Positions 30,507 through 36,147 of a stretch of DNA of 42,135 bases are shown piece by piece (within the stretch, counting starts at the first letter, position 1; each line of letters begins with the position of its first letter). The notes below the pieces were generated by a model. That model had not been told where the DNA came from, made no database searches, and saw nothing but the letters and a program-made list of their open reading frames with translations. A program made the position numbers and the translations under genes. Source of the stretch: a virus (lineage: Duplodnaviria; Heunggongvirae; Uroviricota; Caudoviricetes); IMG/VR virus record IMGVR_UViG_2558860274_000001, positions 1-42,135 of that record. The stretch is one strand, 5' to 3'.

Positions 30507-30528
30507 CAAAAACCCGCCGAAGCGGGTT
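30507..30528 (-). terminator. Rho-independent terminator downstream of hokD
   Basis: Minus strand AACCCGCTTCGGCGGGTT followed by TTTTGC; same hairpin core as at 28678. Confidence 0.6.
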
Positions 30529-30596
30529 AAGTGCGGGTGCGTTGAGGATGCCTGGCACATCAGAGGTGGCGGGAGATTACTCCCCCGCCGGGTCTC

Positions 30597-30752
30597 TTAC
30601 TCCTCAGGTTCGTAAGCTGTGAAGACAGCGACCTCCGTCTGGCCGGTTCGGATTCGTACCTCGCAGAGGTCTTTCCTCGTTACCAGTGCCGTCACTATGA
30701 CGGTTAAACAGATGACGATCAGGGCGATTAACATCGCCTTTTGCTGCTTCAT
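30597..30752 (-). CDS. hokD: Hok-family type I toxin (HokD/RelF-like), 51 aa
   Basis: Manual translation MKQQKAMLIALIVICLTVIVTALVTRKDLCEVRIRTGQTEVAVFTAYEPEE; below the ORF-track size cutoff. Confidence 0.85.
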   Translation of the reverse strand: MKQQKAMLIALIVICLTVIVTALVTRKDLCEVRIRTGQTEVAVFTAYEPEE

Positions 30753-31041
30753 AGCCTGCTTCTCCTTGACCTTTTGGTCCGTAAGAGGCTAATCTCTATG
30801 TGTCGCATAGATATGGCCTCAGATTAATGTTAAGCGTCTTGCAGGACGCGTAATGTTAACTGGGGCTTTTCTCTATCTGCCGTTGGTGTTCATGCCTGAG
30901 GCAGATAGCCTCAAGCACCCGCAGCAATTCTACTTAACTCTCCTTTTCCCGCAAATCGTTTTTATCCCCAGCGGCAAATCGAATACACCACCAGCGCCAC
31001 CGCCATTGCAATTCCCATCGTTGCGAATGCTTCAGGCCAGG

Positions 31042-31761
31042 TCATTGACTCACCTCCAGCGGCGGTTCTGGTAGCGGCATCCAGTGAGTTACTTGCCCAA
31101 GGTCATTACCCGGACTAACTGCTATACCTCCGCGTCGGAACGTGTCTCCGATATAGCGTGCGGAATATATTAATGGCCCAGCCTCGCTGTCGATATTCAC
31201 CGAAATAAGCACGTTCTGGCTCTTTTCAGGCGTTCGCTCACTGCAGCTTATCCAACTATCCGGAGCTCCCGGAGAGTTGCCCGACAGCTCGTTCAACTTG
31301 TAAGTCTGGCTTACAGGCTCGTCACCATTAAGCATGGCGTTGCTCCGCTCTATACCATCCAGCGCGATTCGCAGTGCCTGAATTGTGGTAGTGCTATCGT
31401 TTGGGGCTATTCCATATCGCTCGAATACAGCGATATGACCGCGCATAATCTCAGGTGTAAGTTCTTTGTAAGCATAAGCAAGAGACGCTGATGCATTATC
31501 CGGCACAACCGACGCAGGCGCGGCAGCATAAACAGGAATAACGTCCGCTTGCTCTTTATTGCTTTCATCCGTTAAAGCCCAGAATAATTTCCCGGCTGGA
31601 TGTTTGAAAATATAAGCAATTGGTTCTGCTTCCAGCGATGCCAGAGCAATTTTGAATAACTCACCCTCTACTCGTGCCCCCCCTGAATTGGGGTGGCATT
31701 TCGCAATCGCTATTTTTAATTTAGCTTCTTCGATTAATTGCTCTTTTGTTAATTCAGTCAT
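31042..31761 (-). CDS. DUF551 domain protein
   Basis: 239 aa ending QVTHWMPLPEPP motif. Confidence 0.6.
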   Translation of the reverse strand: MTELTKEQLIEEAKLKIAIAKCHPNSGGARVEGELFKIALASLEAEPIAYIFKHPAGKLFWALTDESNKEQADVIPVYAAAPASVVPDNASASLAYAYKELTPEIMRGHIAVFERYGIAPNDSTTTIQALRIALDGIERSNAMLNGDEPVSQTYKLNELSGNSPGAPDSWISCSERTPEKSQNVLISVNIDSEAGPLIYSARYIGDTFRRGGIAVSPGNDLGQVTHWMPLPEPPLEVSQ

Positions 31762-34828: not shown

Positions 34829-35276
34829 TAGCTTTTTCTATAAGCTCGTCAGTCTCACGCTCCACAACAGCGGGATCTGCCAAAAGCAGACCGGACTCCA
34901 CCACATCGCCATATTCTTTGTTTAACCCGGCGATCATGTACGTAATGCTTTTTCCGTCAGTAATTTCACAATACAACCTGAAATCGCTGATCCGGATAGC
35001 CTCCATAATTGCCGGAATCAGCGCCATGAATTTTTCCCGCTTATCCCTGGTGTCGATAGCTTTCCAGCGTTCGAATATCTTCACCCGGTTAACGCCCAAC
35101 GCCCGTTGATCAACCTCGCCATCATTAAACGTGACGCGTTGAACATCGATGTTCGGGCGTTCTTTCAGAGCCCAGAATGCTTCCGTGATTAATATCGTCG
35201 CCTGCTCCTGTGTCATTCCTGGTCGGCATACCCAGGCATCCAGAGCCTCACAAACCTGTTCAGGGGTGATTTTCAT
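34755..35276 (-). CDS. Hypothetical regulatory protein in the cII position (YdaT-like?)
   Basis: 173-aa ORF between cro-like dicC and replication genes; family assignment not verified. Confidence 0.35.
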   Translation of the reverse strand: MKITPEQVCEALDAWVCRPGMTQEQATILITEAFWALKERPNIDVQRVTFNDGEVDQRALGVNRVKIFERWKAIDTRDKREKFMALIPAIMEAIRISDFRLYCEITDGKSITYMIAGLNKEYGDVVESGLLLADPAVVERETDELIEKAIAFKHAYRQQYQQKAGWNYESSFC

Positions 35277-35490
35277 TGTTCAACCGCCCCGCCCGCTTTG
35301 CCTTACGATATTCGTCATAAACTTTGGGGTCGTACTGAAGTTCCCCGCCGGATGCATCTTGCAGGCGCATCGCGCGACCTTCAGGTACTAGCTCCCCTTT
35401 CCAGCTATAAAGCGAAGCCAAACGAATACCAGCAGCTTGTGCAAGTTTTGTTTTTGAACCGAAATACAAAAGTGCGTCAGTTTTAAGCAT
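35260..35490 (-). CDS. dicC: DicC, Cro-like repressor
   Basis: 76 aa MLKTDALLYFGSKTKLAQAAGIRLASLYSWKG..., matches Qin DicC as I recall it; divergent from dicA. Confidence 0.85.
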   Translation of the reverse strand: MLKTDALLYFGSKTKLAQAAGIRLASLYSWKGELVPEGRAMRLQDASGGELQYDPKVYDEYRKAKRAGRLNNENHP

Positions 35491-35505
35491 TTAAAGCACC
35501 TTAAT

Positions 35506-35571
35506 TGTTAGCCATAACTAACAAAATAGATGTTAACAAAAACATAGTCAATAAGATTTAGCATTAGCTAA
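35506..35571. promoter_or_regulatory. dicA-dicC divergent control region with two palindromic operators
   Basis: TGTTAGCCATAACTAACA (35506..35523) and TTAGCATTAGCTAA (35558..35571), inverted-repeat arms TTAGC/GCTAA. Confidence 0.6.
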
Positions 35572-35573
35572 CT

Positions 35574-35981
35574 ATGGATACAAAAAATTTAACCATTGGC
35601 GAACGCATTAGATATCGCCGAAAAAACCTCAAATACACCCAAAGGTCTCTTGCTAAAGCCCTGAAAATTTCTCATGTATCGGTTTCACAATGGGAACGGG
35701 ATGATAGCGAACCTACAGGAAAGAATCTTTTTGCCCTCAGCAAAGTACTGCAGTGCTCGCCAACATGGATTCTATTTGGCGATGAAGACAAGCAGCCATC
35801 ACCACCTATTGAGGAGCCAGTTGCTCTATCCCCCAAAGAACATGAGCTCCTTGAGCTTTTTAATGCATTGCCTGAATCAGAACAGGATGCTCAGCTCACC
35901 GAGATGCGCGCCCGAGTAAAAAATTTCAACAAACTCTTTGAAGAGTTATTAAAAGCCCGTCAACGAACAAACAAAAGATAA
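35574..35981 (+). CDS. dicA: DicA, CI-like XRE-family repressor
   Basis: 135 aa MDTKNLTIGERIRYRRKNLKYTQRSLAKALKISHVSVSQWERDDSEPTGKNLFALSKVLQCSPTWILFGDE, matches Qin DicA as I recall it. Confidence 0.9.
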   Translation: MDTKNLTIGERIRYRRKNLKYTQRSLAKALKISHVSVSQWERDDSEPTGKNLFALSKVLQCSPTWILFGDEDKQPSPPIEEPVALSPKEHELLELFNALPESEQDAQLTEMRARVKNFNKLFEELLKARQRTNKR

Positions 35982-36005
35982 CGCAATCAATGCGTTATCT
36001 TTTTG
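35978..36005 (+). terminator. Rho-independent terminator after dicA
   Basis: GATAACGCA-ATCAA-TGCGTTATC followed by TTTTTGG. Confidence 0.6.
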
Positions 36006-36041
36006 GCCGCCCAGAATGTTAGCTATGACAAACAAAAATGC

Positions 36042-36070
36042 TTGACCAAATTGTTAGCCATGGCTAATAT
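36042..36070 (+). promoter_or_regulatory. dicB-operon promoter with overlapping operator
   Basis: TTGACC, 17-nt spacer, TAATAT; palindrome TTAGCCATGGCTAA (36054..36067) overlaps the spacer and -10; second operator-like site at 36017..36034. Confidence 0.6.
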
Positions 36071-36147
36071 TGCTTGCATCAAGACACCGCACGGTGTTCT
36101 CAGCAAACAGTTCCGCTACCCCGGCGTTAAGGGGAAATGAGGTCAGC

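What the first reader, a model, noticed from the sequence alone, without database searches (positions are those of the whole stretch)
30597..30960. hokD type I toxin locus without relBE, with an upstream leader ORF and an antisense promoter-like element
A 51-aa Hok toxin (identical to the HokD/RelF sequence as I recall it) is encoded at 30597..30752 on the minus strand, below the ORF-track cutoff. On the minus strand a 19-codon upstream frame (MRHIEISLLRTKRSRRSRL) ends in TGA overlapping the hok ATG, resembling mok-type translational coupling. On the plus strand, TTGACC-18-TAATCT (30767..30796) could drive a Sok-like antisense RNA across the hok leader. In K-12, hokD is the third gene of relBEF; here relBE is missing, so expression control of this toxin must differ.
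Basis: partly seen in the sequence, partly recalled or inferred. Interest (0 to 1): 0.5.

Follow-up and report, generated by a model that had tools for sequence, protein, structure and literature searches.

The report
Intact prophage hok/sok toxin-antitoxin cassette
This is a complete, ordinary copy of the well-known hok/sok RNA-controlled toxin cassette carried by a lambdoid prophage, a close relative of the characterised hokW-sokW locus found in most E. coli genomes; the K-12 "relBE-hokD" arrangement is the truncated exception.

Summary
A 51-aa Hok toxin identical to K-12 HokD is encoded at 30597..30752 (-). A 19-codon upstream ORF (30749..30808, -) ends in a TGA that overlaps the hok ATG.

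The locus is a full hok/sok-type type I toxin-antitoxin cassette spanning about 30508..30954:
- The leader matches Rfam RF01794 end to end (102 bits; gathering score 59).
- The predicted 413-nt mRNA folds with its 5' end paired to a 3' fbi box.
- The antisense promoter is homologous to the sokW promoter of phage 933W/Sp5. That locus is 93% identical, was annotated mokW/hokW/sokW, and was shown experimentally in 2021 to be a type I TA.

Similar DNA occurs in 4731 of 5426 complete E. coli genomes, and RefSeq calls it hokD. K-12 keeps only 14 nt upstream of hokD, so relBE-hokD is a 5'-truncated remnant and this window shows the intact state.

The one mildly unusual feature is the out-of-frame 19-codon mok. 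Most relatives have an in-frame 70-codon mok. The short form is still recurrent: about 790 E. coli records carry it. Verdict: already known, low interest.

The parts
30927..30954 (-). Putative hok (mok-hok) mRNA promoter: -35 TTGCGG (30954..30949), 16-nt spacer, -10 TAGAAT (30932..30927)
   Evidence: Read directly from the sequence. The -10 ends 7 nt before the G at 30920, where the Rfam leader model begins. This is inferred: the strict consensus scan did not call it.
30508..30920 (-). Predicted full-length mok-hok mRNA (about 413 nt)
   Evidence: The 5' end is set by the Rfam RF01794 model start and the 3' end by the intrinsic terminator. MFE is -169.5 kcal/mol with z = -8.6 against shuffles.
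30909..30920 (-). tac element (mRNA nt 1-12, GGGUGCUUGAGG)
   Evidence: It pairs with fbi in the full-length MFE fold. In the 3'-trimmed RNA it pairs with ucb within 1.4 kcal/mol of the MFE, and it does so in the Rfam consensus structure.
30862..30869 (-). ucb / anti-SD box (AAAGCCCC, mRNA nt 52-59)
   Evidence: In the full-length fold, GCC and CAG (nt 55-61) pair with CUG/GGC (nt 99-105) across the mok SD. In the tac-stem fold the same bases pair with the 5' end (Rfam structure).
30818..30821 (-). mok Shine-Dalgarno (GAGG)
   Evidence: Read from the sequence, 9 nt upstream of the mok ATG. The column is invariant among 102 unique related loci.
30749..30808 (-). mok-type leader ORF: 19 codons plus TGA, which overlaps the hok ATG (ATGA)
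   Evidence: Translation. The start aligns with the annotated mokW start of 933W. The same 19-codon class is found in 13 sampled loci.
30766..30795 (+). sok promoter: -35 TTGACC, 18-nt spacer, -10 TAATCT
   Evidence: Single match, 0.01 expected by chance. It is homologous to the sokW promoter TTGCCT-17-TAACCT, whose -10 was mutated experimentally (PMC8621323).
30802..30870 (+). Predicted Sok antisense RNA (69 nt): about 12-nt largely single-stranded 5' tail, long stem-loop, GGGGCUUUU end
   Evidence: The ends were transferred from the annotated 71-nt sokW of 933W through the alignment. Fold is -29.3 kcal/mol, z = -5.0. It is complementary to the mok SD and start codon.
30762..30765 (-). hok Shine-Dalgarno (GGAG within AAGGAGA)
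   Evidence: Read from the sequence. This is the only upstream element retained in K-12, where homology starts at 30766.
30597..30752 (-). hok toxin gene, 51 aa, identical to K-12 HokD
   Evidence: PHROG 251 'MokW-like host killing', E = 2.8e-33.
30611..30614 (-). TACG motif at the Tyr47 codon (candidate TadA A-to-I editing site, Tyr to Cys)
   Evidence: Read from the sequence. PMC5630033 reports editing of hokD at the equivalent Tyr within a TACG motif.
30535..30547 (-). fbi (fold-back inhibition) box CCUCAACGCACCC
   Evidence: It pairs with mRNA nt 1-12 in the MFE fold. It is nearly invariant in relatives.
30511..30528 (-). Intrinsic terminator of the hok mRNA (AACCCGC-UUCG-GCGGGUU followed by a U run)
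   Evidence: Terminator scan. Homology with K-12 hokD ends just after it.

Best explanation
The locus is an intact hok/sok-type type I toxin-antitoxin cassette of the hokD/hokW clade. It sits in the early-right (nin) region of a Qin-like lambdoid prophage.

Proposed mechanism, by homology with R1 hok/sok and Sp5 hokW-sokW:
1. A weak promoter makes a mok-hok mRNA of about 413 nt. Its 5' tac box pairs with the 3' fbi box. In this closed form the ucb/anti-SD box covers the mok SD, so the mRNA is neither translated nor bound by Sok.
2. Slow 3' trimming removes fbi. The 5' end then pairs with ucb instead, which frees the mok SD and start codon.
3. The constitutively made, unstable Sok RNA of about 69 nt (promoter 30766..30795) base-pairs over the mok SD/AUG. 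The duplex is destroyed with help from RNase III and Hfq.
4. When Sok falls, for example on prophage induction or loss, ribosomes translate the 19-codon mok. They terminate at the UGA that overlaps the hok AUG and reinitiate on hok.
5. The 51-aa membrane toxin is then made and depolarises or lyses the cell.

Shown here: the sequence elements, the homology, and the alternative folds. Inferred: transcription, processing, coupling, toxicity of this allele, and the biological role. The most likely role is help with lysis and phage release on induction, as shown for hokW-sokW. Prophage stabilisation or phage exclusion are alternatives.
For: - Toxin: Pfam HOK_GEF 1.2e-23; protein identical to K-12 HokD.
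- Leader: full-length Rfam RF01794 match at 30750..30920, 102 bits against a gathering score of 59, E = 3e-22.
- Closest relative: 93.3% identity over 476 nt to the 933W locus annotated mokW/hokW/sokW. That locus was shown to be a type I TA. Sok promoter mutation releases toxicity. RNase III and Hfq are needed. sokW disappears and HokW appears on mitomycin C induction. Phage release is halved in the deletion (PMC8621323).
- Folds: the full-length MFE pairs nt 1-12 with fbi nt 374-386, z = -8.6. Forcing the tac/ucb stem costs 12.4 kcal/mol in the full-length RNA but only 1.4 kcal/mol in the fbi-less RNA. This matches the switch described for R1 (PMC9841398).
- Sok: the fold has a 5' tail, a long stem-loop and a U tail, z = -5.0.
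- mok: in R1, only mok translation up to the hok start is needed for Hok synthesis (PMC9841398). A 19-codon mok that stops at the hok ATG is therefore sufficient.
- Conservation: the cassette is nearly invariant among 102 unique relatives, apart from the Sok 5' tail.
Against: - There are no expression data for this allele. Transcript ends are transferred by homology.
- The consensus promoter scan called neither promoter. The sok -10 TAATCT matches TATAAT at only 3 of 6 positions.
- Chromosomal hok loci tested by Pedersen and Gerdes 1999 did not mediate post-segregational killing (as cited in bioRxiv 10.1101/2025.08.07.668861).
- The mok frame here differs from the characterised hokW locus, where mok is in frame and 70 codons long. 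Coupling efficiency is untested.
- tac and fbi are invariant in this clade, so no covariation support could be obtained here.
Confidence: 0.9

Rival explanations
1. The cassette is structurally intact but functionally silent. It would be a chromosomal or prophage hok relic that is never activated, like the K-12 hok loci.
For: Several chromosomal hok loci failed to mediate post-segregational killing, and four K-12 hok loci were reported inactive. These are cited (bioRxiv 10.1101/2025.08.07.668861; PMC5630033). There is no expression evidence for this allele.
Against: Every regulatory element is present and conserved: ORF mean pairwise identity is 0.97, and tac, fbi, the SDs and the sok promoter are nearly invariant across 102 unique loci. 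There is no IS insertion or truncation, unlike K-12. The 93%-identical hokW-sokW is toxic, Sok-controlled and affects phage release.
Confidence: 0.12
2. Hok expression is governed mainly by read-through transcription of the prophage early-right operon, not by the autonomous hok promoter and the 3'-processing cycle. The operon runs dicC/cro-like, O-like, DnaC-like, DUF551, hok, and on to Q, all on the minus strand. On induction, PR-type transcripts would cross the cassette, interfere with the convergent sok promoter, and supply hok RNA that lacks the proper tac 5' end.
For: All flanking genes from 35490 down to the Q region are co-directional with hok. No terminator was found between the DUF551 gene and hok. 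In Sp5, sokW vanishes and HokW appears only on RecA-dependent induction.
Against: In Sp5, hokW mRNA was present before induction and its level did not change, which argues for an autonomous promoter. In 933W the cassette sits in a different genome position, so operon context is not conserved. The idea is pure inference here.
Confidence: 0.25
3. The 19-codon upstream ORF is a frameshifted, non-functional remnant of the usual 70-codon in-frame mok. Hok would then be translated directly or not at all.
For: Most sampled relatives have mok in frame with hok at -57, 70 aa. The window differs from them by a 2-nt deletion and a 1-nt insertion.
Against: Three mok frame classes coexist (-57, -56 and -58), all keeping the same ATG and SD. 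The 19-codon class recurs in 13 sampled loci, and about 790 E. coli records carry the window-type segment at 95% identity or more. In R1, translation of mok beyond the hok start is dispensable, whereas the first 19 codons are needed (PMC9841398). The UGA/AUG overlap is a classical coupling arrangement.
Confidence: 0.1

Closest known systems
hokW-sokW (mokW/hokW/sokW) of Stx2 phage 933W / Sakai prophage Sp5
   Same: The two loci are 93.3% identical over 476 nt, including the promoter region, tac, ucb, Sok stem-loop, hok ORF and fbi. Both sit in a lambdoid prophage. The mok start and sok promoter are at the same positions. The Hok proteins are the same length, 51 aa, with 47 of 51 residues identical.
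   Different: - mok: out of frame and 19 codons here, ending on the hok ATG; in frame and 70 codons for mokW.
- sok promoter: TTGACC-18-TAATCT here, TTGCCT-17-TAACCT in 933W.
- Sok 5' tail: the sequence differs.
- 3' end: 933W diverges before the terminator hairpin.
- Position in the phage genome: nin region here, near attR in 933W.
- Hok C-terminus: TAYEPEE here, VDYESEK in HokW.
hokD (relF) of the relBEF operon, E. coli K-12 Qin prophage
   Same: The hok ORF is 100% identical and the 3' UTR, fbi and terminator are 98.5% identical (260 nt). The prophage backbone and slot are the same: dicA/dicC on one side and rem-ydfU(DUF968)-Q on the other.
   Different: K-12 homology stops 14 nt upstream of the ATG. 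It has no tac, ucb, mok start, Sok target or sok promoter; relB-relE lie there instead. The window has no relBE, keeps the replication genes, and carries an extra RmrT/RmrA pair downstream of hok.
hok/sok (parB) of plasmid R1
   Same: The architecture and predicted folding switch are the same: tac/fbi, tac/ucb, anti-SD over the mok SD, and a Sok with a 5' tail plus stem-loop. The leader matches the Rfam family. Nineteen mok codons precede the hok start in both.
   Different: The sequences are distant: HokW is 44% identical to R1 Hok according to PMC8621323. R1 mok is 70 codons and overlaps hok. R1 is on a plasmid and acts in post-segregational killing.
hokC (gef)/mokC/sokC chromosomal locus of E. 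coli
   Same: It belongs to the same family. One sampled mok class (MLVTYRLPLTDRKVKEKQ...) resembles MokC as I recall it from memory. mok is an in-frame N-terminal extension in most hokD/W loci, as in mokC (and my own knowledge).
   Different: It is a different chromosomal, non-prophage locus and is IS-inactivated in K-12 (my own knowledge of Pedersen and Gerdes 1999). It was not compared by tool here.

Membership tests
[quoted passage not shown] | Small hydrophobic Hok/Gef toxin | tested here: met
   Pfam PF01848 HOK_GEF, E = 1.2e-23, 82.9 bits against a cutoff of 22. PHROG 251, E = 2.8e-33.
[quoted passage not shown] | Conserved structured hok mRNA leader (tac stem, ucb, Sok target, mok start) | tested here: met
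   Rfam RF01794 matches positions 1-157 of 157, 102.2 bits against a gathering score of 59, at 30750..30920. Note that the model lies on the hok-sense strand.
[quoted passage not shown] | Long-range 5' tac / 3' fbi pairing that closes the full-length mRNA | tested here: met
   The MFE fold pairs nt 1-12 with nt 374-386. Forcing the alternative costs 12.4 kcal/mol. No covariation test was possible because the columns are invariant.
[quoted passage not shown] | Alternative tac/ucb stem that frees the mok SD after 3' trimming | tested here: met
   The tac/ucb fold lies within 1.4 kcal/mol of the MFE once fbi is removed, and ucb otherwise pairs across the mok SD. This is in silico only.
[quoted passage not shown] | mok leader ORF with its own SD, translated up to the hok start | tested here: met
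   GAGG-9 nt-ATG at 30808. The 19 codons end in a TGA overlapping the hok ATG. The start is homologous to mokW. Translation itself is not testable here.
[quoted passage not shown] | cis-encoded Sok antisense RNA with a promoter inside the mok region, complementary to the mok SD/AUG | tested here: met
   Promoter at 30766..30795, homologous to the sokW promoter. The predicted 69-nt RNA has Sok-like architecture. Transcription was not tested.
[quoted passage not shown] | Toxicity of Hok, neutralisation by Sok, RNase III cleavage, 3' processing | not testable with these tools
   Shown only for the 93%-identical hokW-sokW (PMC8621323) and for R1 (PMC9841398).
relBEF operon (K-12 context of hokD) | relB and relE immediately upstream of and co-transcribed with hokD | tested here: not met
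   tblastn of K-12 RelB gave no hit and RelE only a chance fragment, E = 0.17. The alignment shows a hok leader where K-12 has relE.

The most novel reading that the evidence does not exclude
The prophage hokD/hokW cassettes may form a set of mutually orthogonal specificity classes. The only hypervariable stretch of the transcribed locus is the Sok 5' recognition tail, which overlaps mok codons 2-4. That would let several cassettes (up to 11 places per genome) co-reside without cross-protection.

On this reading the window's class would be a distinct regulatory subtype. It combines an improved sok -35 (TTGACC), an 18-nt spacer, and a minimal 19-codon mok that terminates on the hok AUG.
Probability: 0.3. 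Interest if true: 0.35.

Novelty: already known. Interest (0 to 1): 0.15.

Why it matters
It matters little as a discovery. The locus type was annotated in phage 933W and functionally characterised in 2021, and it is present in most E. coli genomes.

It is useful for annotation. RefSeq labels only the hokD CDS and omits mok, Sok and the mRNA elements. Readers who know only K-12 may wrongly take relBE-hokD as the reference state.

Two by-products are small leads. One is the three coexisting mok reading-frame classes. The other is a hypervariable Sok recognition tail in an otherwise almost invariant cassette. Both bear on how multiple hok/sok copies avoid cross-talk. The recent Hok survey explicitly left mok and Sok unanalysed.

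Tried and rejected
- The consensus promoter scan of 30400..31100 found no sigma-70 site. I do not count this as evidence against the promoters. The scan needs at least 4 of 6 matches in each hexamer, and the homologous sokW -10 (TAACCT) is experimentally supported.
- I searched the window for relB, relE, ydfV and flxA. None is present, while rem, ydfU, dicA and dicC homologues are. This rules out a displaced relBE.
- PADLOC has no model that hits Hok.
- I looked for tac/fbi covariation in 102 unique relatives. The columns are invariant, so the result is uninformative.
- I tested whether hok is generally linked to the RmrTA pair found downstream. Only 4 of 90 sampled loci (plus L002, which is not among the 90) have it, so it is not a fixed association.
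- The co-residence analysis of Sok-tail classes covered only six genomes, and the copies differ in five of them. This is suggestive only.
- The Rfam family name 'sok' could be read as direct detection of the antisense RNA. I rejected that reading because the hit is on the hok-sense strand and ends at the hok AUG.

Full report
**1. What is in the sequence**

The minus strand of 30300..31300 and the ORF list confirm three features:
- A 51-codon ORF at 30597..30752 (-). Its product, MKQQKAMLIALIVICLTVIVTALVTRKDLCEVRIRTGQTEVAVFTAYEPEE, is identical to K-12 HokD translated from NC_000913. It matches Pfam HOK_GEF at E = 1.2e-23.
- A 19-codon ORF, MRHIEISLLRTKRSRRSRL, at 30749..30808 (-). Its TGA overlaps the hok ATG. 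It is preceded by GAGG, with 9 nt between the GAGG and the ATG.
- TTGACC-18-TAATCT on the plus strand at 30766..30795. It occurs once against 0.01 expected by chance.

The window has no relB and only a chance-level RelE fragment.

**2. What it is**

Rfam's family RF01794 ('sok') matches 30750..30920 over the whole model (1-157 of 157). The score is 102 bits against a gathering score of 59, E = 3e-22. The hit is on the hok-sense strand and ends at the hok AUG. It therefore certifies the conserved, structured hok mRNA leader rather than the antisense RNA itself.

A 501-nt query over the locus finds similar DNA widely:
- 4731 of 5426 complete E. coli genomes have a match, and 3828 hold at least 80% of the query. 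The median is 2 places per genome and the maximum is 11. RefSeq labels the CDS hokD.
- 84 phage records have a match.

Phage 933W (AF125520) is 93.3% identical over 476 nt. There the locus is annotated mokW, hokW and 'SokW antisense RNA'.

The same locus in Sakai prophage Sp5 was characterised by Takada et al. 2021 (PMC8621323):
- HokW is toxic.
- sokW, expressed from its own promoter, neutralises it.
- Mutating the sokW -10 releases toxicity.
- RNase III and Hfq contribute.
- On mitomycin C induction sokW RNA disappears and HokW accumulates in the inner membrane, in a RecA-dependent way.
- Deleting the locus delays lysis and halves phage release.

**3. Mapping the elements**

I aligned the window to 933W and transferred the annotated features:
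- The mokW ATG corresponds to 30808.
- The 71-nt sokW corresponds to 30802..30870 (+), which is 69 nt here.

Primer YO-421 of Takada et al. replaces TAGGTTAG (hok sense) with CCGGCTCG. It therefore mutates exactly the hexamer homologous to TAATCT. This is my inference from the primer sequence and the Figure 1E legend.

The predicted Sok folds into a 5' tail of about 12 nt that is largely unpaired, a long stem-loop and a GGGGCUUUU end. Its energy is -29.3 kcal/mol, z = -5.0.

A candidate hok promoter (TTGCGG-16-TAGAAT, 30954..30927) ends 7 nt before the G at 30920, where the Rfam model starts. This promoter is inferred. An intrinsic terminator lies at 30528..30511.

**4. The folding switch**

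The 413-nt RNA 30920..30508 has an MFE of -169.5 kcal/mol, z = -8.6. In that fold:
- nt 1-12 (GGGUGCUUGAGG) pair with nt 374-386 (CCUCAACGCACCC). This is a tac/fbi fold-back.
- nt 55-61 (GCC.CAG) pair with nt 99-105 across the mok SD.

Enforcing the Rfam tac/ucb stem (nt 1-8 with nt 52-59) costs 12.4 kcal/mol in the full-length RNA. It costs only 1.4 kcal/mol once the fbi region is removed.

This is the closed-to-open switch described for R1 hok mRNA. In that model tac/fbi closes the RNA, ucb acts as the anti-SD of mok, and tac/ucb forms after 3' processing (Le Rhun et al., PMC9841398).

**5. The mok ORF**

I collected 142 loci carrying the hok start region from IMG/VR, GTDB genomes and the collections. 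Those with a leader fall into three classes that share the same mok ATG and SD:
- -57, in frame with hok, 70 aa. This is the majority and includes 933W.
- -56, 19 codons ending on the hok ATG. There are 13 of these, including the window.
- -58, 68 aa in the other frame. There are 9 of these.

The window class differs from 933W by a 2-nt deletion after the mok ATG and a 1-nt insertion. The insertion also creates the better -35, TTGACC.

An 86-nt query over this segment finds matches at 95% identity or more in about 790 E. coli records, so the class is common.

[quoted passage not shown] A 19-codon mok ending at the hok AUG therefore retains exactly the part that is needed.

**6. Relation to K-12 hokD**

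Alignment with the K-12 relE-hokD region shows that homology begins only 14 nt upstream of the hokD ATG and runs through the ORF, fbi and terminator. BLAST gives 98.5% identity over 260 nt, window 30507..30766.

The flanking prophage backbone is shared:
- dicA/dicC correspond to window 34997..36140.
- rem and ydfU correspond to window 27019..28692.

K-12 Qin has thus lost the hok leader, mok start, sok gene and replication genes, and carries relBE-ydfV-flxA there instead. The window shows the intact arrangement in a Qin-like lambdoid prophage. Annotation of the 100%-identical locus in E. coli PS1Thumoskin9 is, and PHROG assignments are. 'relBE is missing' is the normal state, and K-12 is the derived one. 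This agrees with reports that hokD is inactive in K-12 (Pedersen and Gerdes 1999, as cited in PMC5630033).

**7. How it most likely works**

The mechanism is as set out under the best explanation. A stable, closed mok-hok mRNA is slowly 3'-trimmed into an open form. Sok binds the open form over the mok SD/AUG and triggers its decay. When Sok falls, mok is translated, ribosomes terminate at the UGA overlapping the hok AUG and reinitiate, and Hok damages the inner membrane.

For the biological role, the only direct evidence concerns the close homologue hokW-sokW, which gives earlier lysis and more phage release on induction. Prophage stabilisation or phage exclusion remain possible.

Here the cassette is co-directional with the early-right operon, and no terminator lies upstream of it. 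Read-through on induction could therefore contribute. This is inference only.

**8. Novelty**

The locus type, its elements and its function are already known, and this exact sequence is present in a public genome. A 2026 preprint catalogues 44,248 Hok homologues and reports enrichment in prophages. It explicitly did not analyse mok or Sok (10.1101/2025.08.07.668861).

The small residue of novelty has two parts:
- Three mok frame classes coexist.
- The Sok 5' tail is hypervariable. Mean pairwise identity is 0.66 over 30797..30815, against 0.90-0.97 for the rest of the locus from the mRNA 5' end through fbi and 0.79 for the terminator. Co-resident copies differ there in 5 of 6 sampled genomes. 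This hints at orthogonal specificity classes.

**9. Verdict**

The finding is an ordinary, already-known system, so interest is low.

Noticed in passing
window 28697..30431 (-): The two genes immediately downstream of hok match the RosmerTA anti-phage defence system. The 216-aa protein hits RmrT (PADLOC PDLC03929, 4.6e-25). The 368-aa HTH + M78-peptidase protein hits RmrA (PDLC03943, 8e-105). K-12 Qin lacks this 1.8-kb insert at the same spot. The same pair follows hok in 4 of 90 sampled loci (one of them is L142) and in L002; 2 further loci have distant RmrA homologues at that position. The slot after the hok terminator therefore looks like a variable defence/moron site.
   Followed up: partly
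window 30797..30815 (both strands); alignment of 102 unique related loci: The Sok 5' tail, which overlaps mok codons 2-4, is the only hypervariable part of the transcribed cassette. Mean pairwise identity there is 0.66, against 0.90-0.97 for the rest of the locus up to fbi (0.79 for the terminator). Co-resident copies differ in this segment in 5 of 6 genomes sampled. This may reflect diversification of antisense specificity.
   Followed up: partly
window 30962..31045 (-): A 27-aa hydrophobic ORF, MTWPEAFATMGIAMAVALVVYSICRWG, has an ATG that overlaps the stop of the DUF551 gene (ATGA). It is conserved with amino-acid substitutions but an intact frame in at least 21 related loci, including 933W. 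It has no Pfam or PHROG hit. It is probably an unannotated small membrane protein that travels with the hok cassette.
   Followed up: partly
window 30611..30614 (-): The Hok Tyr47 codon lies in a TACG motif, which is the TadA A-to-I editing signature. Editing of K-12 hokD at the equivalent Tyr, giving Cys, has been reported (PMC5630033). The motif is also kept in 933W.
   Followed up: no
window 30750..30920 (-): Rfam RF01794 is named 'sok antitoxin', but its match is on the hok-sense strand and ends at the hok AUG. A hit to this family therefore marks the hok mRNA leader. The true Sok RNA is on the opposite strand, as annotated in 933W.
   Followed up: yes
window 25228..25381 (-): Two adjacent tRNA genes, tRNA-Thr(UGU) and tRNA-Gly(UCC), lie downstream of the Q antiterminator region of the prophage.
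   Followed up: no
window 29781..30431 (-) versus L002 6773..7078: In the 100%-identical genome NZ_CP180607, RefSeq annotates only a 101-aa ORF where the window has the 216-aa RmrT ORF. The full 216-aa ORF is annotated in NZ_CP030111. This is an annotation inconsistency.
   Followed up: no
L127, L130, L132, L141 (genome-contig hits): Exact hokD-type sequence appears on short contigs attributed to Xanthomonas pisi, a Haemophilus MAG, a Veillonella parvula MAG and 'Candidatus Scatousia'. One phage record is labelled Actinobacillus phage vB_Apl-pPE4. These are most likely E. coli contamination or mis-binning rather than real host range.
   Followed up: no
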